From: an uncultured Acidobacteriota bacterium
GTDB lineage: Bacteria > Acidobacteriota > UBA6911
Direction: 5' to 3'
DNA length: 64,000 nt
NCBI GenBank assembly: GCA_963827655.1
Contig: CAWHCF010000010.1
Coordinates: 85,503 to 149,502, forward strand
Positions 1 to 64,000 of this stretch are shown one piece after another. Positions within the stretch are counted from its first letter, which is position 1; each line of letters starts with the position of its first letter. The notes under the pieces were generated by a model. It was not told the DNA's origin. It saw only the letters and a list, made by a program, of their open reading frames with translations, and made no database searches. A program made the position numbers and the translations under genes.

Positions 1-2
1 GG

Positions 3-893
3 CCGGATATCTACGTTGCCTCCGACTCCACGGCCAACATTCTTTATCATAACGAGAGGAACGGTACCTTTACTGATATCGGACTAGTTTCCGGCACTGC
101 TTACAATCGGGATGGCAAGGAGCAGGGAGGTATGGGAGTTTCGGCCGCCGATTACGACGGTGATGGTTTCTTCGACATCGTCAAAACCAACTTCGACGGC
201 GACACCTCGACTCTCTACCACAACAACGGCGACGGGTCGTTCTTCGACGTCACTTTACCCGCCGGGCTCGGTCGCAATACGCACTTCGTCGGCTGGGGAA
301 CTGGCTTTTTCGATATCGACCATGACGGCTGGAAGGATATCTTCATGGTCAATGGTCACATTTATCCCGAGGTAGACCGTTACCGGCTGGAGCGAACTTA
401 CCGGCAGGATCGTCAGATCTTTTGGAATTCAAGGAAGGGAAAGTTCCTGGACATTTCTTCTCAGGCGGGACCTGCCATACTCGACCGCCGCAGCTCGAGG
501 GGAGCGGCCCTGGGGGATCTGGACAACGATGGCAGTCTCGAAATCGTCATCAACAATATGAATGACCTGCCGAGCCTGCTCAAGAACCTGGGTGAAAAGG
601 AGAACTGGATTCTTATCAAGACCGCAGGCAAGCAATCCAACCGAAACGGTATCGGAGCCCGAGTTGCCGTGATTACCGGAAAGCACCGGCAGATCGACGA
701 AGTCCGCAGCGGAGGGAGTTATCTCTCGCAAAGTGATCTGCGGCTGCATTTCGGCCTTGGACCAGCAGTGAAAGTCGATCGCGTCGAGGTCCTCTGGCCC
801 AGCGGGAAGAAGGAGTTCTTTAAAGATTTGAAAGCGGGTCAAATCGCGATCCTGGAAGAAGGCAGGGGTAGTGAAATGACGAGCGACAAGTGA
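3..893 (+). CDS. CRTAC1/ASPIC-UnbV family FG-GAP repeat protein, 5' partial (runs off the window start)
   Basis: The reading frame is open from position 3 with no stop upstream of the tracked ORF 132..893. Motifs DIYVA.DS..N.LYHN..NGTFTD, DYDGDGFFD and LDNDGSLE are typical of VCBS/FG-GAP repeats, and a C-terminal UnbV_ASPIC-like segment is present. Confidence 0.7.
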   Translation, partial: PDIYVASDSTANILYHNERNGTFTDIGLVSGTAYNRDGKEQGGMGVSAADYDGDGFFDIVKTNFDGDTSTLYHNNGDGSFFDVTLPAGLGRNTHFVGWGTGFFDIDHDGWKDIFMVNGHIYPEVDRYRLERTYRQDRQIFWNSRKGKFLDISSQAGPAILDRRSSRGAALGDLDNDGSLEIVINNMNDLPSLLKNLGEKENWILIKTAGKQSNRNGIGARVAVITGKHRQIDEVRSGGSYLSQSDLRLHFGLGPAVKVDRVEVLWPSGKKEFFKDLKAGQIAILEEGRGSEMTSDK

Positions 894-922
894 GCTCTAC
901 TCGCGGTGGCGGCTTTCGGTTG

Positions 923-2328
923 ATGAAAACTCGATTCTGGAGTCTTGTCCTCTTATTGTTTCCTCTCTTGCGCGGCCCAGGCGGGTGATCGACAAGCGGA
1001 GGACTGGCTGGCTGAAGGGAAAAAGCTCATCGCGGAAAGACGTTTCGCCGACGCAGTCGTTGCCTTCAAGCATCTGAAGCAAGCGGCTCCTGAGGATCCC
1101 CGGGCTTACTTTTTTTCCGGCATCGCGCTGGCCGAAGCGGGCCAGCTGAGCGCCGCCGCAGCCGAGTTAAACGAAGCGGTTCGCCTCGATCCCGCTCAGC
1201 CCGAATATGCCCTGTCCCAGGCGAACGTGCTGGTACGACTGGGCCAGAAAGCTCTCGCCGTAAAGGCTCTGGCCGTATTCGAGAATGAAGGATATGCCAG
1301 CCGGCTCACGGCAGCCGGGCTCTGGCTTCTTGCCGATATTCACTATCGCCTGGGCAAAAACCAGGAATCGCTGAGAGCCCTTCAACTATTAGCCAGTCGC
1401 AATCCGGAAGATTCCCGCATCGATTTCCACCGCGGCCAGATCTACAAGATCATGGGAAACCTCGATCTTGCGCAGGAAGCTTTCGCAAAGAGTATCAAGA
1501 ACTCGGCCGATAACCCCGCCGCGTATTTCGAGCTGGGCCGGATACTCGAGCAGCGCAACGATATGAACGCTGCCAAGAAAGCTCTACTGGAGGCAGTGAG
1601 ACAGGATGGAGACGAATCCCGAATACCTTCATGGGCTGGGGGCCGTGTGTCTGGCGCTGGGCGAGGTTGACGAGGCCATCGGGTACCTGGAACGGGCAGA
1701 GCCCTCGGGTGCCGCCTTTCCCAAGATCTACTACGCCCTGGGGCAAGCGTACCAGCGGAAAGGGGATCGAAACAAAGCCGCGAAATACCTTGCCAAGGTC
1801 CAAGAAACGAACCTCGCTCAGCGGAAGAAGGAAGTCCGGGATCACGGAGAGCTGACACTGATCACCCTGGGAGAGAAGCAGCTCGAACAGGGGAATACGG
1901 CTGAAGCGCGCGTCTTGTTCGAAGAGGTCCTCCAGGCAAATCCGGACAACTGGCATGCTCATGAATATCTGGCCCGGATGTTTCTTTCTTCCGGAGACCG
2001 GCCGCGCGCGCATCAACACCTGCTCAAGATGGAACAGATCGATTCGCACTCAGTCGAGGGAAATTATTTGATGGCTCTTTATTGCTATCAGAACGAGGAG
2101 TTTGCACGAGCAGCCGCCTACGCCGAGCGCGCCCGATCGGTTCAGCCGGGAAATGCCGAGGTTCGCAATTTGCTGGGGAACATTTACCTCAGGCTGGCAC
2201 AACCGGAAAAAGCCCTGGAAGAATATCGAGCTGCGGTGCGGCTGGCTCCGGCTCGTTCGGATTTCCGGGCGAATCTGGAGAACGCTGAGAAGCCAAAAGA
2301 GCCCCCAGCAACCAAACCGCAGAAGTAG
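923..2328 (+). CDS. Secreted tetratricopeptide (TPR) repeat protein; reading frame broken twice (ORF fragments 945..1670 and 1606..2328, signal peptide in a third frame from ATG 923)
   Basis: Both tracked ORFs consist of TPR-like A/L/Y-rich helical repeats. Their 65-nt overlap joins as ...EAVRQD|PNNPEYLHGLGAV..., a textbook TPR junction. ATG 923 encodes MKTRFWSLVLLLFPLL, which stops after 21 codons but continues as AAQAGD... in the frame of ORF 945. Confidence 0.55.
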
Positions 2329-2420
2329 CGCGGCGATCGCTCGTGGGTGAGCCAGCAGATTTGCCGATTAGTCCAGCCAAGCCGGCCAGGAAAGAATGCT
2401 ATTGAAACTTAAAGAATGCA

Positions 2421-7152: not shown

Positions 7153-7201
7153 TTGGCGTTTCTTCGCGTCTTCGAGTCTTCGAGGTATGATGAAACGCCA
7201 A
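7153..7201. repeat. Hairpin (10-bp arms TTGGCGTTTC/GAAACGCCAA) whose loop carries the TCTTCGCGTCTTCG motif shared with the elements flanking the TBDR tandem array
   Basis: A perfect inverted repeat read directly from the sequence. The motif tcttcgcgtcttcg recurs at 11051 and 14805. Confidence 0.5.
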
Positions 7202-7408
7202 GCATCTTAGCACCCTTTTTTTTACTTGAACTGATTGTTGCCGCAAGTTACTGTTTTGCATCAACCAACCCTGGCTGATCGGTACGGTGGCGAAGGGTCC
7301 AAAAGCCGCCCAATGTCGAGCTACGTTCGAGAAGGTAGAGTTATCTCGTATCCAAGGCCCGTCAACTTCCCTGGGTCCGGATGCCATCCTTATCATGCTG
7401 GAGGAAGA

Positions 7409-10400
7409 ATGCGAAAGTCGAAGAGCACGAACAAAGCAACGCCAGAATAGCCATCTTTTTTCTTGCCGCTCTTATCACGCTGGCCCTGGCCGCACCGCCT
7501 GGATTAGCGCAGACGGGCACGGGAACGGTCCAGGGAAGGATCCTGGACGCCAACCGCGCGGTGATTCCAGGGGCCGATATCACAATCACAAATCAGGATA
7601 CAAATATCTCACGCAAGACGGTTGCTTCCGGAGACGGGAATTACGCTATTGGCGCCCTTCCGCCGGGCCCTTACACGCTGGCCGTGGAGGTGCCGGGATT
7701 CAAGAAATGGACGGGCAAGCTGGTGCTGGAGGTCGGCCAGACGGCGGTCGTGGATGCCGTCATGCAGGTCGGCGACATCGCCACCGAAGTTGAAGTCGTC
7801 GGCGCCGCCCCGCCCATCACGCTCGAGAGCGCGGAAGTGTCGGATGTGAAGGATGCGGTCCGCATTCGACAGTTGCCGCTCAACGGCCGGGCCATCAGCA
7901 ATCTGTTTGACTTGACCCCCGGAGTCGAGGGGGGCGGCAACCCGAGGGTCAACGGCCTCAAGGTCGGGTCGGTGGAAATGACGATCGACGGGATCTCCCT
8001 CGTGGATCGGTTTGGCGGCGGCATCGCCCGCGTCCAACCTGGATTGGACACAATCCAGGAATTCCGGATTGAGACGACCGGATCCGATGCCCAATTCTCG
8101 CGCCCTGCGACTGTCACGCTGGTAACCAAGAGTGGAACCAATGCCTTTCACGGCAGCGTTTTCGAGACCCACCGCAACAATGCAGCCGGCTTGCGCGCTC
8201 GCCGCCGTGAGGATGGAAACACATCATCCAAGCTGATTCGCAACGAATTTGGAGCCTCGGCCGGCGGTCCGGTGTATCTCGGAAACTGGTACAACGGCCG
8301 CGACAAGACGTTCTGGTTTGCCGCTTATGAGGGGCTGCGAAACCGCCAGTCCAGATTCGTCGATAGCGTCGTACCGACAGCGGCCATGTGGGCGGGCGAC
8401 TTCAGCGGCATCGTCGACATAAACGGCGTCCAAACTCACATCTACGATCCATTGACTACCGACGCCCGGGGTTTGCGCCAGCAGTTTCCCAATGACATCA
8501 TTCCCGGCAACAGGATTCATCCCTTCTACAAACAGATGCAGGCGCTGACGGCCTTGCCCACCAGCACGGTGAATCCATTCCAGGGGAACAACTTCCAGAA
8601 GTTTTATCCGGACAATCTGGATACCAACACCTTCACCGTGCGCGGCGACCACAAGTTTTCCGACCAGGATAATCTATCGGCAAGATTTTCGCGCAGCCGG
8701 CGCCTGTCGCAAGTCTTCGGAGGTGTCTTCGGCAATCCGGTCGACACCCTGGAAAATGGATTCGGAACCGGCCGGTCGGATACCAAGGTCTACAGCACGT
8801 CGATCCGTGAAACCCACGTTTTCTCACCCACCTTCCTGAGCGAATTGCTCGTAGCCGGCCATCGCTCGAATCAGGGTTCCGGGACCCTCGCGGACTTCAC
8901 CGATTGGCCCAAAGAGCTGGGGTTGCCGAACCCGTTCAACGTTCAAGGTTGGCCGACTCTGGGCGCCGGAATCTTTGCCTGGGATTCCGACAACCGTCAT
9001 GACCAGAAGCTGACCGCCTACGTGGTTGAAGAAAACCTGAGCTGGCTCAAGGGCAAGCACTCGCTGAAGTTTGGCGGGAAGGTCCGTTACGAATACAATA
9101 ACGTCCGGGAACTGCAACAGGCTCAGGGCTCGCATACCTTTGGCAACGCCTGGACCGCGCTGTACGATCCGGTCGGAGACCAGACGGCTTCTTTCACCGG
9201 CGACGGCCTGGCCGCAATGGCCCTGGGGGTCCCGACTTTCCTGTCCAATCAATATAACCGGGGCTACTTCTACTTCGAGCAGCAAGAGATCGGCCTTTAC
9301 TTCCATGACAGCTGGAAGGCTCATCCGCGCCTGACGCTGGATCTGGGGGTCCGCTGGGACAAGTGGACGGCATACGAAGAGAAGTACAACCGGCTGGTGA
9401 ATGTCGATCTCAACAACTTCGCCAACCAATTTCAGGTCGTCACGCCCAAGGACGTGAGGATGGAAGACCTGCCCGGCATTCCATCGTCGGTGCTTCAGTC
9501 CTATGCCGTGCGCGGACTGACCTGGACGACCGCGCGGAATGCGGGTTTGCCGGACAATCTGGTCAAGGGAGACAACAACAATTTCGCCCCCCGCATCGGC
9601 GCGGCATTCCGGATCACCGACAAAACCGTCTTGCGCGGCGGGTATGGAGAGTATTTCTGGACCATGCCGCTGGCGCAGATCCTGCAGACCTCGAGAACCA
9701 ACCCCCCGCTCAACCTGAGATTCACGAACCAACTCGGATCCTTGGACGGCACTTCCACCTTTGGGGTTCGAACCACGCCGAGACCGGAATTCTTCGTCGG
9801 GACTGCAACGGTTGATACCGAGGGCATCGTCTTCATCCCTCCGAATGCCCATTGGGATGATGCCCTGGGCCGCTGACGATTGGAAAGATGGCCGCGCCCA
9901 GGCGTGGCACCTTACTCTGGAGCGCGAAGTGATGCGCAATACGGCCCTTCGCTTGAGCTACATCGGCGATCATGGCCGGGATATGGAGCAGCGATTCGCT
10001 CTCAACAACCAGGAGGCGGAATACAATTACGTGGCACGGACCGGACAGAACCCTCCCGCCAACCGCGCGTTCATGCGGGTTAACCCGAACTGGAACTTCT
10101 CAGCCGCCAACCGTACCGGATTCTCCAATACGCATTCGGCGCAGGTGGAGGTCGAGCGCAAGTATTCCACCGGCCTGGCATTCCAGTTCTTCTACACCTT
10201 CACCCGATCCCTGACCACTTCGGACGCCGGTGGCTTCACCAGCGGTAATGGCGGACATAAACGCCACCGATGGCCAGTTTCAGGTACCGGAGAACATCCA
10301 GCTTCTCGGCGGCAACTCCAATCTCAGCTACGATCAAAGGCTCCGTCTCGGTTATTACAACAACACCAACATCCCCCCGCATAGGATCCGTTACAACGGA

Positions 10401-11037
10401 ATCTATGACCTTCCCTTTGGCCGGGGGAAGCAGTTCGGTGGAGATGTCGCTCGCGGCTGGGACACCCTGATCGGCGGCTGGCAGATTGCCGCGATCGGGG
10501 ACTGGCGTGGCGGCCTGTGGAGAAGTGTTGGCAGCGGGCTCTACTGGTTCGGAGATCCTACGCTCGCATCCCGATGCAGCAACTGGAGATGACCATTTTC
10601 GGCCGGCATCAGCGGCTGTGGTTCCGTGGAGATTTCGATCCGCGCCAGGCCACGAATGTCTCGCAGGAGGCCTTGCAGGCTCTGGTGCCGGTAAACCGTG
10701 CCGAAAGAGTTCTGCGCCCGCTGGGAGCAGCCTTCGACAACCGGCTGCCGCAGACTCTGTCAAACGGCGCCGTCCGGCAAACTCCCATCACCGACACGGT
10801 GAATCCCAAACCCAAGGGCGTTCTACATCGGTCCGCGGCAGCTGGAATGTCGACCTCGCGCTATTCAAGAACTTCAACATCACCGAGAGAGTAAACGCTC
10901 GCTTCTCGGCCGACTTCTTCAACTTCTTCAATCATCCGGTCGACGTCGCGCCCAATACCACCACAGGTCTGCAAGACTTGAGTGTCCAGGCCAACGAGCC
11001 TCGGATCATTCAGTTCTCGCTTCGTTTGGACTGGTAG
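7409..11037 (+). pseudogene. TonB-dependent receptor (CarboxypepD_reg-like N-domain + plug + 22-strand barrel), copy 1 of a tandem pair, disrupted by about 5 frameshifts (ORF fragments 7381..9876, 9761..10384, 10230..10592, 10517..10894, 10486..11037)
   Basis: The fragments are collinear with the intact-looking copy 2 at roughly 85% amino-acid identity. A strong RBS GGAGGAAG precedes ATG 7409 (MRKSKSTNKAT, matching copy 2's MKNSKSNNRAS), but the frame is lost after 13 codons at a CCC/CC run. The C-terminal ...IIQFSLRLDW is identical to copy 2. Confidence 0.7.
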
Positions 11038-11050
11038 ATCCTTCTTTGAG

Positions 11051-11106
11051 TCTTCGCGTCTTCGTGGTTAGTGCATGAAAACAAGCGCACCACGAAGACG
11101 CGAAGA
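11051..11106. repeat. Conserved 18-bp-stem hairpin (TCTTCGCGTCTTCGTGGT ... ACCACGAAGACGCGAAGA, 20-nt loop) immediately 3' of TBDR copy 1
   Basis: Perfect inverted repeat. A near-identical element lies after copy 2 at 14805..14860. No T-run follows on the + strand, so it is not a canonical intrinsic terminator. Confidence 0.6.
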
Positions 11107-11169
11107 AAAACCAAAACCGTCAACTTCCCCCTGGGTTCCGGATGCGTGGCTGATTATCCTGGAGAACGT

Positions 11170-14100
11170 ATGAAAAATTCGAAGAGTAACAACCGGGCAA
11201 GCGCCCGAATTGCCGTCTTTATTCTTGCTGGCCTTATCACGCTGGCCCTGGCCGCACAGCCTGGATGGGCGCAGACGGGAACGGGAACGGTTAAAGGAAC
11301 GGTACTGGACTCAAACCGTGCCATAGTCCCTGGAGCCGACATTACCATCACGAACGAGGAGACAAACATCTCGCGCAAGGCGATCAGCGCCGCCGAGGGG
11401 ACTTACTCCATAGGCGCCCTGTCTCCGGCCCCCTACGTGCTGGTGGTCGAGGCGCCGGGATTCAAGAAATGGTCGGGCAAGCTGGTGCTCGAGGTCGGTC
11501 AGACGGCGGTAGTCGACGCCGTTCTCCAGATCGGCGATATCTCCACCACCGTCGAGGTGGTCGGCGCCGCGCCGGTCATCACGACTCAGAGCGCAGAGAT
11601 CTCAGATGTCAAAGACGCCCAGCGCATCCGGCAGCTGCCGCTCAACGGCCGCGCCATCAGCAGCCTGTTTGACTTGACTCCCGGGGTCGAGGGCGGAGGA
11701 AACCCCCGGGTCAACGGTCTCAAGGTTGGTTCGGTCGAGATGTTGATGGACGGCATTTCGCTTGTGGATCGATTCGGCGGCGGCATCGCCCGGGTGCAGC
11801 CGGGGCTGGATACGATCCAGGAATTCCGGATCGAGACGGTCGGATCTAACGCCCAATACTCGCGGCCGGCCTCGATTACGCTGGTAACCAAGAGCGGAAC
11901 CAATAACTTTCACGGCAGTGCTTTCGAGACCCACCGGAACAACGCGGCCGGTCTGAGGTCGCGCCGCCGGCAAGACGGAGACACATCGTCCAAATTGATT
12001 CGGAATGAGTTCGGGGTCTCGGCCGGCGGGCCGGTTTATCTGGGTAGCTGGTACAACGGGCGCGACAAGAGCTTCTGGTTTGCCGCCTACGAGGGCCTGA
12101 GAAATCGCCAGGATAGTTTCGTCCAGAGTATTGTGCCGACAGCGGCCCTGTGGGCGGGTGACTTCAGCGGCATCGTCGACGCCAACGGCGACCGGACTCA
12201 CATCTACGATCCATTGACGACGGACGCGCGGGGTCTGCGCCAGCAATTTACTAATGACGTCATTCCCAGCACCAGAATCCACCCCTTCTACAAGACGATG
12301 CAGTCTCTCACCGCTCTGCCCACGAATACCGTGAATCCATATCAGGGAAACAACTTTGAGAAATTTTATCCAGACGTCCTCGACGTCAACACATTAACCC
12401 TGCGAGGCGACCACAAGTTCTCAGACAAGGATAACCTGACGGGAAGGTTCTCGCGCAGCGAGCGTCTCGCGCGCGTATTCGGAGGGGTTTTCGGCAATCC
12501 TCTGGAAACCCTCGACAATGGATTCGGCACCAGCCGGTCGGACGCCACGGTTTACAACACGTCGATCCGCGAGACCCACATCTTCTCTCCGAATTTTTTG
12601 AACGAGCTGCTACTGGCCGGACACCGCTCCAACAAGAGCTCCGGGACTCTGGCCGATTTCACCGACTGGGCCCAGGATCTGGGATTGCCCAACCCGTTTG
12701 CCACCCAGGGATGGCCCACCATGTACGCGGGCGATTTCCCCTGGGATGGAGACAATCGCAAGGACGAGATGCTTACGGCCTACGTCGTCGAGGACAACCT
12801 GAGCTGGGTCAAGGGCAAGCACTCGATGAAGTTCGGCGCCAGGGGCCGTTACGAATACAACAACGTGCGCGAATTACAGCAGGCTCAGGGCTCACACGAT
12901 TTTGGCGGCAGCTGGACGGCTTTGTATGACCCCGTCGGCGATCAGGCGGTTTCGTTCACGGGTGACGGCCTGGCCGGGATGGCTCTCGGGCTTCCCACCT
13001 ACTTGTCCAACCAGTATAACCGGGGCTATTTCTACTTCCAGCAGCAGGAGTTCGGCCTCTACTTCCATGATAGCTGGAAGGTCTCTCCCCGGCTGTCCCT
13101 GGAGCTGGGAGTTCGCTGGGACAAATGGACCGCGTACGACGAGAAGTACAACCGTCTGGTGAACGTGGATCTCGACAACTTTGCCAACAAGTTCGAGGTC
13201 ATCACGCCGAAGGATGTCCGCATGGAGGAGCTCTCAGGGAATCCCGCCGTCGGTGCTTGACTCCTGGGCGGCGCGAGGTCTCACATGGAGGACCGCGCGG
13301 GATGCGGGTTTGCCTGATAATCTGATCACGGGAGACAACAACAATTTTGCCCCGCGTATCGGTGCCGCTTTCAGGATCACCAACAAGACCGTCTTGCGCG
13401 GCGGGTATGGCGAGTACTTCTGGACCATGCCCCTTTCCCAGATCCTGCAGACATCGAGAACCAACCCTCCGCTCAACCTGAGATTCGAGAATCCACTCGA
13501 TGTTCTGGACGGAACCGACACTTTCGGTGTCCGAACCAGGCCCGGGTCGGAATTCTTCATCGGAAACGCCACGGTCGACACCGCGGGCATCGTTTCAATC
13601 CCCCCGGGGGCCCAATCGGTAATGCCATGGGACGCTCGCAACTGGAAAGACGGCCGCGCCCAGTCGTGGCACGTCAGCCTGGAACGCGAAGTGATGGGCG
13701 ATACCGCTCTTCGGCTGAGCTACATCGGCGATCACGGGAGGGATCTGGAACAGCGCTACGCGCTCAACAACCGGGAGGCAGAATTCAACTACGTGGCGCG
13801 CACCGGACAGAATCCTCCAGGCAACCGGGACTTGATGCGCGTCAATCCGAACTGGAACTTTGCGGCCGCCAATCGCACCGGATATTCCAATACGCATTCG
13901 GCGCAGGTTGAGATCGAGCGCAAATATTCCGCCGGCGTGGCCTTCCAGTTGTTCTACACCTTCACGCGATCCCTTACCACCACGGACGCCGGCGGGTTTA
14001 CCAGCGGCAATGGCGCCATAAACGCCACCGATGGCCAGTTTCAGGTGCCGGAGAACATCCAGCTTCTGGGCAATCCCAATCTCAGCTATGACGAGAGGCT

Positions 14101-14791
14101 TCGCCTCGGATACTACAACTCGACCAACATTCCCCCGCATCGGATCCGCTATAACGGGATCTTCGACCTCCCGTTCGGCCGGGGAAAACACTTCGGTGGG
14201 GATGTCTCACGCGGCTGGGACACCCTGATCGGCGGCTGGCAGATTGCCACTATCGGTGATTGGCGCAGCGGCCTGTGGAGGAGTGTTGGCAGCGGCCTCT
14301 ACTGGTTTGGCGATCCCACGCTCGCGGCCGATGAGCGCCTGGAGATGACCATTTTCGGCCGGCATCAGCGGCTGTGGTTCCGGGGAGATTTCGATCCGCG
14401 CCAGGCCACGAATGTCTCGCAGGACGCCTTGCAGGCTCTGGTGCCGGTAAACCGTGCCGAAAGAGTCCTGCGCCCGCTGGGAACGGCTTTCGACAACCGG
14501 CTACCGCAGACCCTGGCAAACGGCACCGTTCGGCAGACTCCCATCACCGACACCGTGAATCCGAACCCGAGGGCATTCTACCTCGGTCCGGGCAGCTGGA
14601 ATGTAGACCTCTCGCTGTTCAAAAACTTCAGCATCACAGAGAGGGTGAAGGCTCGATTCACGGCCGACTTCTTCAACTTCTTCAATCATCCGATCGACGG
14701 CGCGCCCAGTACAACCACGGGTCTGCAAGACTTGAGCGTCCAGGCCAACGAGCCTCGGATCATTCAGTTCTCGCTTCGTTTGGACTGGTAG
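11170..14791 (+). CDS. TonB-dependent receptor (CarboxypepD_reg-like N-domain + plug + barrel), copy 2, with one apparent frameshift near 13200-13260 (fragments 11071..13260 and 13181..14791)
   Basis: RBS GGAGAA is followed by ATG 11170 and a signal peptide (MKNSKSNNRASARIAVFILAGLITLALAAQPGWAQ). The two fragments join across ...PKDVRMEEL|...GIPPSVLDSWAARGLTW, collinear with copy 1. The GTG at 11071 used by the ORF track lies inside the upstream hairpin loop. Confidence 0.7.
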
Positions 14792-15552: not shown

Positions 15553-15559
15553 GGCTTAC

Positions 15560-15588
15560 ATTATAACGGGTGCCGGTATAACGCTCAA
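15560..15588 (-). promoter_or_regulatory. Putative sigma70-type promoter (TTGAGC - 17 nt - TATAAT) ending 8 nt upstream of the higB GTG, implying a leaderless or very short-leader transcript; contains direct GTTATA repeats (candidate HigA operator)
   Basis: Reverse complement of 15560..15588 reads TTGAGCGTTATACCGGCACCCGTTATAAT. No Shine-Dalgarno sequence lies between it and the start codon. Confidence 0.4.
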
Positions 15589-15733
15589 CGTCTTGGACGC
15601 GGCCACACCCTCGATCAGCCTGCGTCCCCTGGCCGGTACGTACACCTCGCCTGCCGACCAGCACGCACCGTTGTGGTCGCGCAAATGAGAAGCCGTCAGT
15701 CGGAACATATCACCCGAGCCGGTGGCGCCGCGT

Positions 15734-17142: not shown

Positions 17143-18016
17143 TCAGCGTTTCAGCGTCGTACCGATGTAGGCTTTCACCACGTCGACGACATATTCCTGA
17201 CAGGCTTCACCGGTTCTGGCGTCATAGGACCCGCCGTTGGTGATGTTGTTGGACAAAACCCGGATACCGAGAAACGGGATCTGGAAGAAGCCGGCAATCT
17301 GCGCCGCCGACGCGGTTTCCATTTCCTCGACCGAGGTGCCGTATTGACTGCGGAGCCGGTCGTATCCGATCGACTTCGCTGTTCCAGATCTCGCCGGATC
17401 CAATCACGCCTTCCACCACGCGTCCTTTCCGATAGAGATGCTTCACGCTGTTGGCGGCGGCGAGCAGTTGTTCGTTCGCCTCGAAGCGCCGCATGGTGCG
17501 CGCGTTCGGGTCTTCGCCGGCGCTACCCTCCGATGCCATCAGGTCCATCGGTTTCCATTCCAGAAAATCGCTGCCTTGCCCAGGCTTCCGGTAACCGGTT
17601 TTGAACGCCCCCAGATTGACGGAGTGCTTGCCCAGCACGATGTCGTAGACGTGTAACTCCGGGTCATGGCCGCCCGCGGTTCCCTGGTTGACGATCGCCA
17701 CTGGACGATAGCGTTCAGCAGCGATCGCCGTCGCTGCCGCGGAGTTCGACACGCCCTTCATGGTCTTGGAAACCACCACCGGGTAGCCGTCCAGCGTGCC
17801 GCGCCAGAATGTCCAGCCGGCGATTTTCTCCACGCTGACGTTGTCCAGACCGCCGGCAATTTTTTCCGTCTCTACGGGCATCGCGCCCTGTACGAGCACG
17901 GGACGCAACACCGGCATTCTACTGTCTGACGATCGAGTGATCCGGTCCGGGGCTCCGCACCCGCCCAGCAGCAGGTGGATCAACAGTGCCACGCTCATGA
18001 TGGATGCTTTTCTCAT
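17143..18016 (-). CDS. Periplasmic lipoprotein of the purine nucleoside phosphorylase / MTA-SAH nucleosidase (PNP_UDP_1) family, with an apparent frameshift near 17390 (fragments 17222..18088 and 17143..17403)
   Basis: Starts MRKASIMSVALLIHLLLGGCG (lipobox) and is preceded by RBS GGAGAG. Family motifs VNQGTAGG and SGEIWNSE are present, and the C-terminal piece ...FLGIRVLSNNITNGG continues in another frame. Confidence 0.6.
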
Positions 18017-27231: not shown

Positions 27232-27508
27232 ATCTGTGCGCCCCCCCTCGGTCGAAACCGTGACACAACCGAGTCGAATTTTCCGCGTTAAATAGTAGCG
27301 AGTGACCATGACTATGCCACCAGAGCCGGGCTTGAGTCAAGGCGGGCGCGCCATTTCCAAGGACGGATTGAGTCTCTACCTCCACTCCGACTGACCTGGC
27401 GATGCGCAAGACGGTGTTCGCTCCCTGGTCTTGTTGGGTGCGTCTCCTATCGCCGGGGCCTCTGACGTCATCGGAAACGGTCATTCCGATCGGAAAGGAG
27501 TAACGACG

Positions 27509-28770: not shown

Positions 28771-28828
28771 GCGTGGTCCCATAAGTTGGATTGAGAACCG
28801 TCGCAAGTCGTCAAAAAGTAGAAAGTTG

Positions 28829-28875: not shown

Positions 28876-28900
28876 CTCTAATGTTACACCCTGTGAAGAT

Positions 28901-31464: not shown

Positions 31465-31628
31465 TCGATTCTCCTCTCTGATGGTTGTCTGTGTTAGATG
31501 TCGGCCCGGAACACGCCTGGCTTCGGGCGTGTGTGCCAGAGAGTAGGCGTCGTGCCATGTCGAAGTCCTTGCAAAAAGCTCCCAAAATAGTCCAAAATTC
31601 CCCCTTCTAACAATTTCCGGGAATATCT

Positions 31629-35370: not shown

Positions 35371-35372
35371 CC

Positions 35373-40272: not shown

Positions 40273-43200
40273 CTAGAACACAAATTTCATTCCCAGCTGC
40301 ATCGAGCGCGCCGACCCCGCTGAGAAGATCTTGCCTGTATCCGAAACACCGATGGTCGTGTTGGGATTGTTCAGATTCACATGATTGGGCATGTTGAACA
40401 TCTCCCAGCGGAACTGCAGGAACTTGGTCTCTCTGATGTAAAAGTTCTTGGTCAAGCTCGTGTCGAGTACATGGATGCCCGGACCGTCGATAAGGCCGAT
40501 CCCGGAGCTGCCGAATGTGTAGAGCGGAGGGGCCGCCAGCGCCTGAGGATTAAACCAGAGACTGGCGCTCGGGTTGTCGACTTCGAGCTCCCCAACCTGG
40601 TTTGGACGTGTGTTCCTTCCGTTGCCAAGCGTAGCTCCCGGCGTGGTGAAACTCAGCGGCGATCCCGAAGTGAAATTGTAGATGCCAGCCAGCTGCCAGC
40701 CTCCGAGTATCCCGTTAACCACTGGATGGGCGTCACTCAGGAATTTCCTTCCCCTTCCAAAAGGCAGCTCATATATGCCGTTAATGGCCAGTATATGGGT
40801 GCGATCAAACGTCGAACGACCCCGATCATAGCCTTCCGGACCAAACGGCGTCGTTCCCGGGAAGTCATCAATGTGCTTGGAAAAGGCATAGGAAAGCAGG
40901 TACGAGAGCCCGTCGCCAAACCGTTTTTCCCATTTCAACTGAGCCGAGTTGTAATAGGAGTCGCCAATGTTGTCGTAGATGGTGACCTCTCCAAACTTTG
41001 GCCAGGGCTTGGCAGCTTGCAGATCTGTATACAACCCCGGTCGTACTTCGTTAAAAGTGGGAGAGCCGAATACATCGGCAGTACGGTTCCCAACGTACGA
41101 GACCGTCACCGCAGAATCACCCGGCATGGTCTTTTGAATTGACACGTTCCACTGGTGCGACTTGTTACTCACGATATCCACGCCGGGCGCGACCACGGAC
41201 GGCGTCACAAAGGATTGTGGATTCTCCGGCCACGCGTTTTCCCAACGCTGCAACGAGGAAGCGCTCCAGCCTGTCGATTCAAAAGTCCAGTAGGGCGGTC
41301 CAATGATCGACGATGCCGTTCGATTGCCGCTAAAGCTGCTGGTAAAGATGCCATACCCGGCCCGCACGACCAGGCCGCTGCTTCCGCCCGGGCGCCAGGC
41401 TATGCCCAAGCGCGGCGAGAAGTAGCCATTGGCTTTGAACAAGCCCGCCGGGGCGTCGGCCTGCGAAGCCGGGATCCAGAGATCTTTCGTGGCCTCGGCC
41501 AGGAATGGAGCAACCGGCTGCGAAGTCAAATCAACCCGGCCATCCTTGTCCTCGCCCGCGATCGACTTTCCAAGCTTCACATCGAAAGTGGCTACGTTCC
41601 CGCGCACTGCTGCCTTGTCATGCCAGTAGTCCCAGCGGAGTCCCAGATTGACAGTCAAGTTCGGTGAGACGTGCCAGAAGTCCTGAACATACAGCGCGGA
41701 ATAAGGGGAGTTTGCCATGCCAAAAGTCTGAATGGGGTAGTTTCTCGCGGAATTCTGTACCAGGCCCAACAAGTAATCGGCAAAGCCGTCACCCGTGTAC
41801 TGACCGTTAAAAGTAAACGTGCCTCTGGAACAGCAAGAACCATGCCGGCCATAGGTGGTGCGGTTATTGTATTCATAGCCGAGGTTCAGTGAATGCGGCC
41901 CCCGAACCATGTTCACACTGGCCTTTCCGCTCTGCGACTCGAACCACAAGCGTCCTGGTGTTCCCCAGGGAGCGCCAAACCCCTCGTATCCGGTAAAACC
42001 GACTGTCGGTAAACCAATCATCTCCTCTCTTCCGGGTGATGGAAATCCCTGAATCCCAGCCTGCTCGGTGAGGTTTTCTGTTCCCGCCACCGGCGTGGTG
42101 AAAAGATTGAGCGAGCGAAGATAATTGGCTCCCACGGTGAAAAGCGTCGTTGAAGTCATGGCATAAGTGTAATTGAGGCCGACATTCTGCTGCTTGGTAC
42201 TGTTGTCCTGGGTAACATCCGGCCGGTATTGAGGCAAGATCGTGCGCAAAGTCGTTGATGACGTACCGCCCGTAGATTCTCTGTTTGTCTGTGAGTTGCT
42301 GGTCGACCCGAACCATGATTTCGTCGGTATCGCTTGGCTGCGAAGCGACCGCCCGGAAGCGGCCATCCGCCGAATTCGGCTGCAGAATATAGGGGAAAAA
42401 GAATTTCGCGGAGCTGACGATCCGATCCGCCGGAATGATATTGCCAGGAAAGGGCTGTCCGGTCAGAGGGTCTCGGATCTGTCTGCTCGATGACGAGAAA
42501 TTCCCTTGAAAGAACGCAGTCGGAACCGGAGTCGAATTGTAGATTCTCTCCTGCCGGATCCGGGTGCCCTCGTAACTGGTAAAGAAGAAGGTCTTGTCTC
42601 TGATGATCGGGCCGCCAATGCTGTAGCCGAATTGATTTCGAATAAGCTTCGGCTTGCTGGCGCCCGGTGATTTGGCGAACGTATTGAATGCGTCCAGCTT
42701 GTGGTTTCGGTGAAACTCCCACAATGTGCCATGAAACGCATTCGAGCCTGACCTGGTTACCGACAGTACCTGAAGCGCGTTCCGGCCATGTTCGGCGCTG
42801 AAATTGGCCGTCTCGACGTTGAACTCGGCGATCGTGTCTACATTCGGGATCCCGAATCCGCCTTCATCCATTCCAGCATTTGCGTTCAGCCCATCGACCT
42901 GGAATTCGGTACCGCCTCCATCGCCCGTCCGGTTACCCAGGCCCTGAACCGTGATGCCTCTCTCCGGGCCCCCCTGTCCCAGATACCTCATGCCGGGAAT
43001 CAGTCTGACCAGTTCAACCGGATTCCTCCCGTTAAGTGGCAAATCAGCAATCAGTTTCGAGGCGATCGTTGCTTCCACCGATCCTTTTTCAGTCTGAATA
43101 ATCTCAGCTTGCGCCTCGATCGTGATCTTTTCCGTAATCGCCCCAACATCCAGAACCGGTGACAGCCGCTTCCGTTCACCCAGAGTCAATTCCACCCTCT

Positions 43201-43490
43201 CCAGACAGCCACGTCTTGAAGCCCGTAAGCGACGCGGCAACGGAGTAGAATCCTCTCGGCAGAGCCAGCACCTCAAAGTTCCCGCCGGAATCGGTAACCA
43301 CCATTTTCTTCAAGTTGGTGTCAACATTCGTCACGGTCACTTCCGCTCCGGCGATGACGGCGCCCGATGAGTCTTTGACGACGCCCAGTATGGCGCCTTC
43401 GGTTCCGACCTGGGCTAGCAGCGTGGAATTGGCCGCGAAAACCAGCAGCGATACTCCTAATCCCAATCGCAGAACTAACTGCTTTCTCAT
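40273..43490 (-). pseudogene. TonB-dependent receptor (CarboxypepD_reg-like N-domain + plug + barrel), copy 3, disrupted by at least 2 frameshifts (fragments 43176..43583, 41873..43276, 40273..42366)
   Basis: N-terminal fragment: MRKQLVLRLGLGVSLLVFAANSTLLAQ followed by a Cna-B-like domain (EGAILGVVKDSSGAVIAGAEVTVTNVDTN). Middle fragment: plug and early-barrel motifs (ITVQGLGN, NFHGTLWEFHRN). C-terminal fragment ends with the TonB C-terminal Phe (..QLGMKFVF). Confidence 0.65.
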
Positions 43491-43794
43491 GCAAGTCTCC
43501 TCGCTCAGTTCATTCAACCGGGTCCACTCGAGCCATTTGTGGACAGCCGCCCCTCGACTGTTGAATGGGTAGATGTCTCCCATGCAGTCTTTGCCAGAAC
43601 GTCCTCCGTATAAATCGTCTGATTATTGGAGTCAAGCGCAAATTCAAAGTTCGTCCAGAATGTCTCCTGTAGAACTCGAATCCGACAGGGGTGATCAGGG
43701 GTGCGGAAGCACCCCTGGAGTTTGGCCATTTCACGGGTCGACCTTGGAGTGCGGTAGCTTGCTCTGAACCTTACACGCATCTCGATCGGTCTTG

Positions 43795-46468: not shown

Positions 46469-47735
46469 ATGCCTAGCCGAAGGGAATTCGCGCGCTTGTT
46501 TGCCGCCGGAGGTTCGGCGGCGCTTTTCTTGCACCCAGCCTTTGCCGACAAGACCAAACCGTTCGTCCCGTCGCCCGTCGTCAACGAGGGTTTCTGGAAA
46601 ACGGTGCGGGAGCAGTTTCTCATGCCGCCGGGCATCGCGGTGCTGAACGCCGCGAACCTCTGCCCGTCGCCCGCGCCTGTGCTCGAAGCCATGTACAAGA
46701 CCACGCGCGAGCTCGACCGCGAGCCTTCGTCGTCCTATCGAGCGGGCTTGCTCGACGTCAAGGAAGCCACGCGGCGCAAGCTGGCCGATTTCCTTCGGGC
46801 CAGTCCTGATGAGATCGTGATCACGCGCAACACCAGCGAATCGAACAACCTGGTCTCGAGCGGTCTCGACCTCAAGGCCGGCGACGAAGTCGTCGTGTTT
46901 TCCGACAACCACCCGAGCAACAAGACGGCCTGGCAGGAGAAAGGCAAGCGTTTCGGTTACTCCGTGCGAACCATCGACATCGTCAACCCGCATCCGGGCG
47001 CCGACTATTACCTCGAAGCTGCGGCACGGCAGCTCGGCCCGCGCACCAAGGTGCTCGCGTTCAGCCATCTCACCAATACCGTCGGAGACCTGTTTCCGGC
47101 GCGCGAGCTCTGCCGGCTGGCGCGCGAGCGCGAGGTCTTGACCCTCATCGATGGAGCCCAGTCGTTCGGGTTACTGGATGTCGACCTTAGTGATATTCAA
47201 CCCGACTTTTATACCGGGAGCGCCCACAAGTGGCCCTGCGGACCCAAAGAGGCAGGTGTGCTCTACATCAACAAGCGATCGCACTCGGAAGATCTGGCCC
47301 AGCATTTACAGCGCGTTTCCGGGAGCCACCGGAATATCCAAGAGCTTCGAGTGTTTCGGGCAGCGTGATGACGGAGCTATGGCCGCTTTCGGCGCTGCGA
47401 TTGACTTTCAGGTCAAAGTGGGCCGCAAGAACATCGAGGATCGGGCGCGGCAGATCGGCCAGGCGTTCGTGCAGGAGCTGGGAAAAATCAGCGACGTGAA
47501 GCTCTGGACCCACGCCGATCCCCAGCGCACGGGGCCGGTCGTGACGTTTCGACCGGGCGAGCTGAAATCCGAGAAGCTGGCCCAGGTCTTGTTCGAAAAG
47601 GAAGGTGTCATCTGCGCAGTCCGCGGAGGGAGCGATCGTCCCGGCATCCGCTTCTCCCCGCACTTCTACAACTCGCATCGGGAAGTCGAACGCGTAGCCG
47701 CCGCTATCCGCCGATACATGGCCTCCGGGTTGTAA
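46469..47735 (+). CDS. Tat-secreted class-V aminotransferase-fold PLP enzyme (isopenicillin-N-epimerase/cysteine-desulfurase-like), with an apparent frameshift near 47280 (fragments 46469..47368 and 47151..47735)
   Basis: RBS GGAGG is followed by ATG and Tat motif RREFARLFAAGGSAALFL. Motifs ..VLAFSHLTNTVG.. and DGAQSFG..DV..DFYTGSAHKW (the PLP-lysine region) identify Aminotran_5. The C-terminal half continues in another frame. Confidence 0.6.
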
Positions 47736-48845: not shown

Positions 48846-49525
48846 ATGCGGGCACTTTTGAAGCGCTTCTTGACGTGGTTGGGCGGGATCCTGCCGGAAT
48901 CCCTGGTCTGGAAACTGCACATGGCCGGCAAACATGTTCACACCGGCTGGTGGATGAAGGACCATGACTTCTCCTGTGACGTGAGAGTGCGTCATCGAGA
49001 ACAGGTGATCGAGGCGATGGCGCGGCCCATCGCCGACAAGCAGGTTCTGTACCTCGAATTCGGCGTTTTCCACGGCGGCTCCATGCGCCAGTGGGTCAAG
49101 TGGCTTAAAAACCCAAAGTCAAAACTTCGCGGGTTCGACAGCTTCGAGGGGATCCCCGAAAACTGGAGCGGCTGTGATCAAAAAAAGGAGAACTGACCAC
49201 GGGTGGCGTCATGCCGAACATCCCGGACGAAAGGGTCCGGTTTATCAAGGGATGGATCGAGGACACGCTGCCAGTCTACAAGATGGAAGAAAACGAAGTC
49301 CTGGTCATTTTTATTGATACCGATCTGTACTCGTCGACCTACTTCGTCCTGAAGCACCTCAAGGATTACTTCAAAGTCGGCACCCTTTTCTACTTTGACG
49401 AGTTTGCCGTAGTAGAGCACGAGCTGCAGGCGTTCGATAACTTCATCCGCGAGTCGGGCATGAAGTTCGAATTGATTGCGGCCGACTACGGCATGATGAA
49501 CGTTGCCTTCAGACGCGTCGGTTGA
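48846..49525 (+). CDS. TylF/MycF-family class I SAM-dependent O-methyltransferase, split by an apparent frameshift at an A7 homopolymer (49182..49188; fragments 48846..49196 and 49211..49525)
   Basis: Family motifs: EFGVFHGGSM, GFDSFEGIPE, then RVRFIKGWIEDTLP and VLVIFIDTDLYSSTYFVL.., collinear with TylF. The two pieces are adjacent and in different frames. Lower GC than surroundings. Confidence 0.55.
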
Positions 49526-62290: not shown

Positions 62291-62314
62291 GAGGTCCACC
62301 GCCACCAGGTTGCG

Positions 62315-63484
62315 CTACCGGAGCTGGGAGAGAAACGAAATGCCGGCCGGAAGGCGCGCGCCGAAATTCTCCGCGATGGTTTGCCCGATATCGGCCATGG
62401 TCCGGCGGGTTCCGAGATCGACGTTGCCCTCGAGCTTCTTGCTGTACACCAGGATGGGAACATACTCGCGCGAGTGGTCGGTGCTCGGCGTGGTGGGATC
62501 GCACCCGTGGTCGGCGCTGATCACGAGGCAGTCGTCCGCGTTCATCGCGTTGATGAGATCCGGAATTCTCCGATCGAAATCTTCAAGGCCCCGCGCATAA
62601 CCTCCAGGGTCGTTGCGGTGGCCCCAGAGCATATCGAAATCAACGAAGTTGCTGAAGATCAAACCATCCGGGGCCCACTGGAGCGCATCGATCGTCTGGT
62701 CCATTGACTCTGTATTGTCTTGCGCCTTCAGATTCTCGGTGATCCCACGATAATTGAAGATCGATGCAATCTTGCCGACGGCGACGGCCGCCAGGTTCCG
62801 GGCATGCAGCACATCGAGCAATGTGTTCTCCGGCGGCGGCACTGCGAAATCCTTGCGATTCTTGGTCCGCTGAAAATTCCCCGGCGTGCCGGTGAAGGGG
62901 CGCGCGATGACGCGTCCGACGCGATCCTGTCCGTCCAGCAACTTCCGCGCAATTTCACAAATGCGGTACAGCTCCTCGAGCGGGATGACTTCCTCGTGGG
63001 CCGCAACCTGAAATACCGAATCGGCGGACGTATAGACGATGGGACGCCCTGTCTTGACGTGTTCCTCGCCCAGCTCCTTGATGATCTCCGTCCCCGACGC
63101 CGGCTTGTTCCCCAGCACCCCGCGGCCGATGGTCTTCTCGAAAGGCTCCAGCACTCTCGGCGGAAAACCGCGCGGATACGTGGGGAAGGGTTGCGGCGTG
63201 ATGATCCCGGCCATCTCCCAATGTCCGACGGTGGTATCCTTGCCGTTCGAGCAGATCGCTGCTTTTCCGAAAGATCCTTCGGCTCGCGCGCATGGGGGCA
63301 ACTCTGGCAGCGAGCGGATATTGCCCAGCCCGAGCCTTTGCAAGTTGGGCAGCCTCGGTTTCTCGGCGGCGAGAACGTTTCCGATCGTGTCACTCCCTTC
63401 ATCCCCCCATTCGGCGGCGTCGGGCATTTCGCCGATTCCGGCGCTATCAAGAACAACAAGCACAACTCTTCTAAACAGAACCAT
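62315..63484 (-). CDS. deoB: Phosphopentomutase
   Basis: N-terminus ..[31 protein letters not shown].. with Mn-binding DHGCDPT and ..SADHG.. motifs, typical of DeoB. Confidence 0.75.
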
Positions 63485-63572
63485 GATTCGACTTGACGAT
63501 TCGGTACGATTGACGATTTGACGATTGACGATTGAAGACCGGCTTCAATCGTCAATCGTCAATCGTCAATCG
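63485..63572. repeat. Perfect palindrome built from tandem TTGACGA/TCGTCAA heptamers (4-5 units per arm), between two minus-strand genes
   Basis: gattgacgatttgacgattgacgattgaagaccggcttcaatcgtcaatcgtcaatcgtcaatcgtcaatcc, read directly from the sequence. Confidence 0.6.
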
Positions 63573-64000
63573 TCAATCCTTCTTGAGGCTGCTAAGAATG
63601 CGCTGCTGGTACTCTCGCGCCTTCTGTTTGATCCGCTTCTCGTCCAGAGTCAGCACGCGCCCTTCCGACATCACGAGCTTGCCATTGATTATGCTCGTCT
63701 TCACATCCGCCCCCTTCAACGAATAGACCAGGTGGGAGTAAACGTTGTAAAGCGGAACGGCGTGGGCGAGGTCGGTTTCGACGACGATCAGATCCGCTCG
63801 CTTGCCCACCTCCAGCGACCCGATTTCCCCTTGCAGCCCGAGGGCGCGCGCTCCGCCTAGAGTGGCCATCTCTACGACTTTCTCGGCCGGCAGTGCCGTG
63901 GGGTTCATTGAGACAAGTTTGTGCAGCATAGCCGCCGAGCGCATCGCCTCGAACATGTCGAGATCATTGTTGCTGGCCGCTCCATCCGTTCCTAGGCCAA
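63573..64000 (-). CDS. Amidohydrolase, MtaD-like (5-methylthioadenosine/S-adenosylhomocysteine or related nucleoside deaminase), C-terminal part only; the N-terminus lies beyond the window end
   Basis: Contains ..GLGTDGAASNNDLDMFEAMRSAAMLHK...LGGARALGL...GSLEVGKRADLIVVE..., the C-terminal signature of MtaD/Atz-Trz deaminases. The frame is open to position 64000. Confidence 0.65.
   Translation of the reverse strand, partial: GLGTDGAASNNDLDMFEAMRSAAMLHKLVSMNPTALPAEKVVEMATLGGARALGLQGEIGSLEVGKRADLIVVETDLAHAVPLYNVYSHLVYSLKGADVKTSIINGKLVMSEGRVLTLDEKRIKQKAREYQQRILSSLKKD

What the first reader, a model, noticed from the sequence alone, without database searches (positions are those of the whole stretch)
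1..64000. Pervasive +/-1 frameshifts (at least 16) across unrelated genes: an assembly-quality or pseudogene-burden signal
Genes recognisably split across frames: TPR protein (2 breaks), TBDR copy 1 (5), TBDR copy 2 (1), nucleosidase (1), beta-helix protein (1), carboxylesterase (1), DUF1501 (1), TBDR copy 3 (at least 2), class-V aminotransferase (1), TylF methyltransferase (1). Several breaks sit at homopolymers (A7 at 49182..49188; CCC->CC near 7445). That is the signature of uncorrected long-read indels, which suggests many of these are artefacts. The uneven distribution (5 in one TBDR paralog, none in the 5.6 kb A2M gene or the 3 kb kinase gene) leaves room for real pseudogenes. Any downstream analysis of this contig (protein families, operon structure) should treat the raw ORF calls with caution.
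Basis: partly seen in the sequence, partly recalled or inferred. Interest (0 to 1): 0.5.

Follow-up and report, generated by a model that had tools for sequence, protein, structure and literature searches.

The report
Assembly indel errors splitting ten genes
Ten unrelated genes in this Acidobacteria contig are split by about twenty single-base indels that are missing from every independent assembly of the same species, so they are almost certainly consensus errors of this assembly, not real pseudogenes.

Summary
Ten of about 33 genes are split across reading frames by about 20 single-nucleotide indels: 18 insertions, 1 deletion, 1 of ambiguous sign. The same fragments exist as public gene calls on the deposited 298,541-nt NCBI/ENA contig, so the breaks are in the deposited assembly.

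The breaks are very probably artefacts.
- I fetched eight conspecific or closely related contigs (91-99% nt identity): five ENA contigs with Flye-style names and three JGI contigs. I also had two JGI gene tables without DNA.
- Each break with DNA coverage is absent from every comparator, except in the TPR gene. That gene is intact in a JGI gene table.
- Deleting or adding the private bases restores single ORFs with no internal stops and ortholog-like lengths.
- pN/pS downstream of the breaks equals upstream (about 0.1-0.2).
- Each sister ENA contig carries its own private frame-breaking indels at other sites. The JGI contigs carry essentially none.

Only 5 of 20 sites touch a run of 3 or more bases, which equals background. 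The indels are mostly insertions, often next to mismatches, and enriched at strain-polymorphic positions. This suggests mixed-strain consensus errors.

There is no evidence for real pseudogenes. Biological interest is low, but the practical warning about raw ORF calls is valid.

The parts
923..2328 (+). TPR lipoprotein-like gene with two breaks. The first lies between the signal peptide (ATG 923, MKTRFWSLVLLLF...) and the gene body at about 955-975. The second is a 1-nt insertion within 1607-1614.
   Evidence: The repaired ORF is 467 aa with no stops. JGI 3300041966 has an intact 465-aa orthologue. L079 is also broken within the same few bases but with a different sequence.
7409..11037 (+). 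TonB-dependent receptor copy 1 (TBDR1). It has a 1-nt deletion at 7439/7440 and 1-nt insertions at 9854-57, 10253-56, 10567/68, 10576/77, 10804-08 and 10835-37.
   Evidence: Paralogue DNA alignment. L079 and L086 lack or restore each base. The repaired ORF is 1207 aa, has no stops, and aligns in a single frame to L079 and L086. Intact orthologues are 1202-1207 aa.
11170..14791 (+). TonB-dependent receptor copy 2 (TBDR2), a tandem paralogue, with a 1-nt insertion at 13233-13237.
   Evidence: L086 has an intact 1206-aa orthologue. JGI protein P0060 spans the junction in one frame. The repaired ORF is 1206 aa.
17143..18016 (-). PNP_UDP_1 nucleosidase with a 1-nt insertion at 17361.
   Evidence: Orthologues of 289-290 aa are intact in L079, L086 and two JGI contigs.
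27431..28784 (+). Beta-helix (NosD-like) protein with a 1-nt insertion at 28687. The raw ORF runs on spuriously to 29287 and overlaps the esterase gene.
   Evidence: The repaired C-terminal domain aligns without gaps to a paralogous domain in the esterase (46% identity, E 2e-34).
28901..31464 (-). Carboxylesterase with a conserved N-terminal extension of about 340 aa. It has two 1-nt insertions at 29143-45 and 29154-57, a net -1 frame change.
   Evidence: The extra bases are absent from all four comparators (L081-L084). The repaired ORF is 853 aa; orthologues are 847-859 aa.
31466..31467 (.). Window-private 1-nt insertion in intergenic DNA, 2-3 nt upstream of the esterase start codon. The two comparator alleles (C or G) appear stacked as CG in the window.
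34008..35415 (-). DUF1501 protein with a 1-nt insertion at 34572/73. The comparators carry C or T at this site and the window carries CT.
   Evidence: Orthologues of 445-457 aa are intact.
40273..43583 (-). TonB-dependent receptor copy 3 (TBDR3) with 1-nt insertions at 42245 and 43204.
   Evidence: L084 has an intact 1097-aa orthologue that aligns in one frame.
46469..47735 (+). Class-V aminotransferase with a 1-nt insertion at 47287.
   Evidence: The repaired ORF is 421 aa, equal to L080 and L085.
48846..49525 (+). TylF-type O-methyltransferase with two 1-nt insertions at 49176 and 49179, just 5' of the A7 run at 49180-49186.
   Evidence: The repaired ORF is 225 aa, equal to L080.
7164..7164 (-). 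Possible further private 1-nt deletion near the N-terminus of the M28 peptidase. The ORF stays open.
   Evidence: Both L079 and L086 have one more base here. L086 compensates 23 nt further on. Not resolved.

Best explanation
The frame breaks are consensus errors of this particular metagenome assembly, not biology. The contig is very probably a long-read, Flye-type assembly without short-read polishing.

About 20 single bases, nearly all spurious insertions, were written into the consensus. They split ten otherwise intact, selectively maintained genes.

The errors are not homopolymer slippage. They sit in ordinary sequence, often with a mismatch beside them, and preferentially at positions where co-occurring strains of the species differ. 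At several sites the window carries both alleles side by side: C/G becomes CG at 31466, and C/T becomes CT at 34572. This points to a consensus or polishing step run over mixed-strain read pile-ups. Error density varies locally and is highest at the 3' end of the tandemly duplicated TBDR1.

Shown here:
- The indels are private to this assembly.
- The repaired genes are intact.
- Selection is not relaxed downstream of the breaks.
- Sister long-read assemblies have their own private breaks.

Inferred:
- The sequencing platform.
- The mixed-strain mechanism.
For: 1. The breaks are in the deposited record. Public gene calls on a 298,541-nt NCBI/ENA contig equal the window's fragments exactly: P0377 = 7381-9876, P0380 = 10248-10592, P0401 = 11170-13260, P0405 = 13214-14791.

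2. The breaks are absent elsewhere. In every gene except TPR, each frame-breaking indel is absent from every comparator with DNA that covers it (one to four contigs, 91-99% nt identity). For TPR the only DNA comparator, L079, is also broken. Intactness there rests on a JGI gene table, and JGI gene tables also show intact TBDR1 and nucleosidase.

3. Repair works. Removing or adding those bases gives single ORFs with no internal stops. Lengths match orthologues: TBDR1 1207, TBDR2 1206, aminotransferase 421, TylF 225, esterase 853, TBDR3 1102. They align in a single frame at 88-99% aa identity.

4. Selection is unchanged. pN/pS upstream versus downstream of the breaks is 0.20/0.20 for TBDR1, 0.15/0.11 for TBDR2 and 0.17/0.18/0.18 for TBDR3, like the intact control genes.

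5. The defect tracks the assembly type. The sister ENA contigs named contig_N each carry different private frame-breaking indels:
- L079: 791, 6786, 10814, 10883, 10896.
- L084: 28751, 30140, 36066, 36178, 40341.
- L083: 27241, 37149.
- L085: 42546, 43461, 43572.
The JGI contigs have no uncompensated ones inside genes, apart from single-base differences at the extreme end of one gene (37891) and the start of another (61582).

6. Real evolutionary indels behave differently. Between the window and the JGI contigs they are in-frame or intergenic, except exactly at the window's break sites.

7. Ten of 17 private indel sites lie where the comparators themselves differ within +/-2 nt, against a 19% background (binomial p = 3e-4).

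8. Established knowledge. Nanopore-only consensus assemblies retain indels that fragment gene calls, and bins below about 40x coverage need short-read polishing (PMC9262707). Large Flye plus one-round-Medaka soil assemblies are deposited in ENA (PMC12313526).
Against: - No reads, coverage or quality values are available, so the error status is inferred from comparison, not seen directly.
- The comparators are other strains or samples (1.3-9% divergent). A private indel could in principle be a real strain-specific mutation.
- The strong insertion bias (18:1) differs from the mixed insertion/deletion pattern of the sister ENA contigs (about 6:9). It is also not the textbook Nanopore pattern of homopolymer deletions.
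- The platform and pipeline of the source could not be verified.
- The enrichment at polymorphic sites rests on 17 partly clustered sites.
- Several breaks have only one comparator with DNA: TylF (L080), TBDR2 (L086) and TPR (L079, itself broken). TBDR2 is further supported by the TBDR1 paralogue and JGI protein P0060, and TPR by a JGI gene table.
- The TPR breaks coincide in position with breaks in another long-read assembly, L079.
Confidence: 0.9

Rival explanations
1. Genuine, recent strain-specific pseudogenes. This population has really inactivated TBDR1 (a redundant tandem duplicate) and several other genes by single-base insertions.
For: The distribution is uneven: seven events in TBDR1, and none in the A2M, PBP1C or kinase genes. 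TBDR1 has a close paralogue that could make it dispensable. The comparators are not the identical strain.
Against: None of the events with DNA coverage outside the TPR gene is shared by any conspecific assembly. The TPR gene is intact in a JGI gene table. There are no nonsense codons and no larger deletions in any repaired gene. pN/pS downstream of the breaks is unchanged. Seven independent indels with no accompanying decay in 3.6 kb is not how pseudogenes age. The other long-read assemblies show the same kind of defect at different places and the short-read ones do not. A private insertion also occurs in intergenic DNA (31466).
Confidence: 0.05
2. Classical homopolymer-length miscalls of long reads.
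For: The TylF break abuts an A7 run. A few sites touch 3-nt runs (962, 9854, 10804, 28687). One comparator error (L083 at 27241) is in a C7 run.
Against: Only 5 of 20 sites touch a run of 3 or more bases, which equals the 22% background. Ten of the 11 runs of 7 or more bases, eight of them inside genes, are unbroken. At TylF the orthologue shows the extra bases are G and C flanking 'AT' 5' of the run. Most events are insertions between unlike bases, with adjacent mismatches.
Confidence: 0.04
3. Programmed ribosomal frameshifting or another recoding mechanism in these genes.
For: None beyond the existence of +/-1 frame changes.
Against: Orthologues at 91-99% nt identity encode the same proteins in one frame. 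The breaks affect ten unrelated families. No k-mer is enriched near the sites after correction for multiple testing.
Confidence: 0.005
4. Corruption introduced after deposition, so that the window differs from the public record.
For: None.
Against: Public gene calls from the 298,541-nt NCBI/ENA contig match the window's fragment ORFs residue for residue and coordinate for coordinate.
Confidence: 0.005

Closest known systems
Indel-fragmented gene calls in unpolished long-read (Nanopore) consensus assemblies, the problem measured by the IDEEL test and addressed by tools such as proovframe
   Same: Single-base indels split ORFs of unrelated genes. The defect is specific to the assembly, disappears in short-read assemblies, and also affects sister long-read assemblies at other sites.
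   Different: The events are not concentrated in homopolymers. They are almost exclusively insertions, frequently sit beside a mismatch, and are enriched at strain-polymorphic positions. This is more like a mixed-haplotype consensus artefact than a run-length miscall.
Pseudogene accumulation in genomes under relaxed selection (reductive evolution, recent host restriction)
   Same: A high fraction of genes (10 of about 33) is interrupted by frameshifts.
   Different: There are no nonsense mutations, no deletions and no relaxed pN/pS. The breaks are not shared by conspecifics, and every gene is restored by removing or adding the private bases.
Programmed +/-1 ribosomal frameshifting (prfB, dnaX, IS3 transposases)
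   Same: The reading frame changes by one base inside a gene.
   Different: The frame change is not conserved in orthologues. No common motif is present, and ten unrelated families are affected.

Membership tests
Assembly/consensus indel artefact | The indel is absent from independent assemblies of the same species | tested here: met
   Each event with DNA coverage is absent from every comparator that covers it (one to four contigs), except in TPR. JGI gene tables show TPR, TBDR1 and nucleosidase intact.
Assembly/consensus indel artefact | Reverting the single base restores one full-length ORF collinear with orthologues | tested here: met
   All ten genes are restored, with no internal stops and with lengths equal or close to orthologues.
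Assembly/consensus indel artefact | The same class of defect occurs at other positions in assemblies made the same way, and not in short-read assemblies | tested here: met
   There are private frame-breaking indels in L079, L083, L084 and L085. L080-L082 have none uncompensated inside genes, apart from single-base differences at 37891 and 61582 at gene ends. That the ENA contigs were made the same way as the window is inferred from the contig names.
Assembly/consensus indel artefact | Read pile-ups do not support the consensus base | not testable with these tools
   No reads or quality values are available.
Homopolymer-type long-read error (subclass) | Indels lie within homopolymer runs and change the run length | tested here: not met
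   Only 5 of 20 sites touch a run of 3 or more bases, against a 22% background. Ten of 11 runs of 7 or more bases are unbroken.
Genuine pseudogene | The disruption is reproducible in independent sequence of the lineage | tested here: not met
   No event is shared. The TPR site is broken in L079 but with a different sequence, and the gene is intact in JGI 3300041966.
Genuine pseudogene | Selection is relaxed, or further lesions such as stops and deletions appear, downstream of the first lesion | tested here: not met
   pN/pS is equal upstream and downstream. There are no in-frame stops after repair.
Programmed ribosomal frameshift | The frameshift is conserved in orthologues at a slippery site | tested here: not met
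   Orthologues are in one frame. No motif is enriched.

The most novel reading that the evidence does not exclude
Some break sites may be reproducible, context-dependent error or mutation hot spots and not random noise. Both TPR breaks fall within a few bases of breaks in an independent long-read assembly (L079), but with different sequences. This could reflect a base-modification motif or local structure that systematically derails basecalling or polishing. Much less likely, it could be a truly hypermutable site.

More generally, the insertion-at-SNP pattern ('allele stacking') would be a specific, recognisable failure mode of mixed-strain long-read consensus. It could be detected and corrected without reads.
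Probability: 0.15. Interest if true: 0.25.

Novelty: not a real feature. Interest (0 to 1): 0.1.

Why it matters
The result matters as quality control, not as biology.

About 30% of the genes in this window would be mis-annotated as fragments or pseudogenes. One spurious ORF extension (beta-helix, 28785-29287) creates a false 380-nt overlap with the convergent esterase gene.

The same probably holds for the rest of the 298.5-kb contig and for sister assemblies.

The one mildly useful technical point is the error pattern. The errors are non-homopolymer insertions enriched at strain-variable sites. Homopolymer-focused correction would miss them, whereas comparison with conspecific contigs finds them.

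Tried and rejected
- Exact look-up of two intact window ORFs and of P0121 found nothing. The window's own contig cannot be fetched, although its gene calls appear as cluster members.
- The genome-contig scan gave only relatives at 69% aa identity or less. The species is not among the GTDB representatives. The scan was useful only for supplying intact homologues.
- Two JGI contigs returned gene tables but no DNA.
- A first test for polymorphism at indel sites failed because gap placement hid the variation. It was redone on ungapped local strings.
- A k-mer and motif search around the sites found nothing that survives Bonferroni correction. This covered GATC-like methylation motifs. The best raw p was 4e-3 for GAT/ATC among 32 trimers.
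- Rfam at gathering thresholds found no RNA families in the window.
- I tried to tie ENA analyses ERZ25039531 and ERZ25039541 to the Microflora Danica long-read project through supplementary tables. The tables are not held, so the link is unverified.
- I considered whether the FG-GAP/UnbV ORF (3-893) was part of the TPR gene. It is a separate gene that ends at a normal stop.
- I considered 37891 as an extra break. The window agrees with L083 and L084 there and only L081 differs, so it is real variation.
Full report
**What is in the window.**
The window is a 64-kb stretch of an Acidobacteriota genome, Bryobacterales/Terriglobia-like. The best hits among GTDB species representatives reach only 68-69% aa identity. 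It holds about 33 genes (Pfam scans). A codon-usage frame plot shows reading frames that switch inside coding regions with no intergenic gap.

**Checking the observation.**
- Neighbouring ORFs in different frames hit consecutive parts of one Pfam model for seven genes: TBDR1, TBDR2, TBDR3, the PNP_UDP_1 nucleosidase, DUF1501, the class-V aminotransferase and TylF.
- Intact homologues from 78 related loci, aligned by tblastn and by a frameshift-aware dynamic programme, chain across the same junctions.
- The carboxylesterase aligns to PDB esterases only up to about residue 811-817. Its conserved C-terminal motif (MGAYWTRFAAYGDPN) lies in another frame.
- The beta-helix ORF continues spuriously into the esterase gene. 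Its real C-terminus (GWIVTGVRAH...SVVP*) is in the +1 frame.
The FG-GAP/UnbV ORF at 3-893 is a separate gene.

**Locating the events to the base.**
TBDR1 and TBDR2 are tandem paralogues, 81.6% identical in DNA. Their alignment shows uncompensated single-base differences:
- one base missing in TBDR1 at 7439;
- one base extra in TBDR1 at each of about 9854, 10253, 10568, 10577, 10805 and 10836;
- one base extra in TBDR2 at about 13234.

What looked like a -1 break at about 10575 is in fact two insertions 9 nt apart. The same holds for the esterase (29145, 29157) and TylF (49176, 49179).

**The breaks are in the public record.**
Cluster members from an NCBI/ENA contig of 298,541 nt are residue-for-residue the window's fragments: P0377 = 7381-9876, P0380 = 10248-10592, P0401 = 11170-13260, P0405 = 13214-14791. 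Intact ORFs match as well: P0121 = 31629-33776 and P0390 = 44253-46301.

**Independent assemblies.**
Searching with a repaired TBDR1 and with two intact proteins found near-identical relatives. Their contigs were fetched.
- ENA contigs: L079 and L084 (ERZ25039541), and L083, L085 and L086 (ERZ25039531). Nucleotide identity to the window is 94.7-99.3%.
- JGI contigs: L080, L081 and L082. Identity is 91-95%.
- Two JGI gene tables came without DNA.

A cross-table of all indels (contexts) shows that each frame-breaking event with DNA coverage is private to the window, except in the TPR gene. It is absent from every comparator that covers it:
- two comparators for TBDR1, nucleosidase, beta-helix, TBDR3 and the aminotransferase;
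- three for DUF1501;
- four for the esterase;
- one (L086) for TBDR2, supported by the TBDR1 paralogue and by JGI protein P0060, which spans the junction in one frame;
- one (L080) for TylF.

For TPR the only DNA comparator, L079, is itself broken within the same few bases. Its sequence differs: GGGAGC against the window's GGAGAC, where GGAGC would be in frame. JGI 3300041966 encodes an intact 465-aa TPR protein.

**The repair test.**
Removing the private insertions and adding one N for the deletion gives ten single ORFs with no internal stops. Lengths equal or approach those of orthologues:
- TBDR1 1207 aa, TBDR2 1206, aminotransferase 421, TylF 225;
- esterase 853 (orthologues 847-859);
- TBDR3 1102 (1097);
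- nucleosidase 314 from the TTG start, or 290 from the ATG;
- TPR 467 (465).

Each aligns in one frame to the comparators at 88-99% aa identity. The repaired beta-helix C-terminus also aligns without gaps, across the repaired site, to a paralogous domain in the esterase's N-terminal extension (46% identity, E 2e-34).

**Are they real pseudogenes?**
- pN/pS between the window and its closest comparators is the same upstream and downstream of the breaks: TBDR1 0.20/0.20 and 0.16/0.19, TBDR2 0.15/0.11, TBDR3 0.17/0.18/0.18. These values are like those of intact genes.
- No nonsense codon or larger lesion accompanies any break.
- Indels between the window and the JGI contigs are otherwise in-frame or intergenic, as expected under selection. 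The only exceptions sit exactly at the window's break sites.
- Each sister ENA contig, all with Flye-style 'contig_N' names, has its own private frame-breaking indels elsewhere: 5 in L079, 5 in L084, 2 in L083 and 3 in L085.
- The JGI contigs have no uncompensated one inside a gene, apart from single-base differences at the ends of two genes (37891 and 61582).
- The defect therefore tracks the type of assembly, not the organism.
- A private insertion also occurs in intergenic DNA (31466).
- I conclude that the breaks are consensus errors (confidence about 0.9). Genuine strain-specific pseudogenes remain formally possible (about 0.05), because no reads are available.

**What kind of error.**
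- Only 5 of 20 sites touch a run of 3 or more bases, against a 22% background.
- Ten of the 11 runs of 7 or more bases are unbroken.
- At TylF the extra bases flank 'AT' 5' of the A7 run, which is at 49180-49186.

The pattern that does emerge is different.
- The events are 18 insertions, 1 deletion and 1 of ambiguous sign.
- Many have a mismatch beside them.
- Ten of 17 lie where the comparators themselves differ within +/-2 nt, against a 19% background (p = 3e-4).
- At 31466 and 34572 the window carries the two comparator alleles side by side (CG, CT).
- At 29143-57 and 10567-77 the window looks like the union of two haplotypes.

I infer, but cannot show, that the consensus was built over mixed-strain pile-ups. 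The events are clustered: dispersion 1.97, p = 0.013, with six inside 1 kb at the TBDR1 3' end, where the two paralogues are most alike, and none after 49.2 kb. No sequence motif is enriched after correction for multiple testing.

**Source.**
I could not establish the platform. Nanopore-only Flye assemblies polished once with Medaka, with contigs named contig_N, are deposited in ENA by the Microflora Danica long-read project (PMC12313526). That group also showed that Nanopore bins below about 40x coverage retain indels that fragment genes (PMC9262707). The link of ERZ25039531 and ERZ25039541 to that project is unverified.

**Verdict.**
The interpretation as artefact is right in outcome but wrong in mechanism. 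Biologically this is not a feature. Practically, raw ORF calls on this contig should be replaced by frameshift-aware or repaired translations.

Noticed in passing
window 7409-14791: TBDR1 and TBDR2 are tandem paralogues, 81.6% identical in DNA and rising to 91% at the 3' end, and they share upstream regions. Copy number varies between strains: L079 has one copy, while L086 and JGI 3300041966 have two.
   Followed up: partly
window 49625-57414: The alpha-2-macroglobulin and PBP1C gene pair is absent from L080 and L085, which join TylF/DUF4440 directly to the amidohydrolase. It is a strain-variable island, and it is free of indel errors.
   Followed up: partly
window 27431-28784 and 28901-31464: The C-terminal ~100 aa of the repaired beta-helix protein and a segment of the esterase's conserved ~340-aa N-terminal extension share an uncharacterised domain. 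Identity is 46% and E is 2e-34. The shared sequence reads Y(F/L)DVRFR.PGS..DL..LNWQ.G...GVRAH...SATL.V. No Pfam family matches it.
   Followed up: partly
window 16994-17113 and 43889-44012: An intergenic repeat of about 120 nt is 82.8% identical between the two sites. Intergenic stretches of L079 (14358-14599) and L081 (20175-20423) also match it. Rfam has no match.
   Followed up: no
window 26062-26077 (kinase gene 23615-26647, minus strand): L083 and L084 carry 40 and 31 extra bases here, inside the kinase domain, and their genes are called at 805 aa. The window's 1010-aa ORF is intact with a continuous Pkinase match.
   Followed up: no
window 14901-16474: The HigB/HigA toxin-antitoxin pair and a GNAT acetyltransferase sit between TBDR2 and the nucleosidase. 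This block differs between strains: L086 has only the GNAT, and the JGI contigs have an HTH gene with other neighbours.
   Followed up: no
window 23600-33800: The kinase, ECF sigma and beta-helix block is absent from L081 and L082, where MacB abuts the esterase. Within 28-34 kb the G+C content is lower (0.54-0.57) than in flanking DNA (0.63-0.66).
   Followed up: no
window 7164 (M28 peptidase N-terminus): Both L079 and L086 have one more base than the window. L086 compensates 23 nt further on. This may be a further private deletion in the signal-peptide region, and the ORF stays open.
   Followed up: partly
L086 1-4700; L083 13740-16239; L085 3542-6759: Comparator long-read contigs also show fragmented genes. 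A type I R-M system is in pieces in L086, PSCyt2/PSD1 is split 577+274 aa in L083, and TBDR3 is split 730+342 aa in L085. This is consistent with the same assembly problem.
   Followed up: partly
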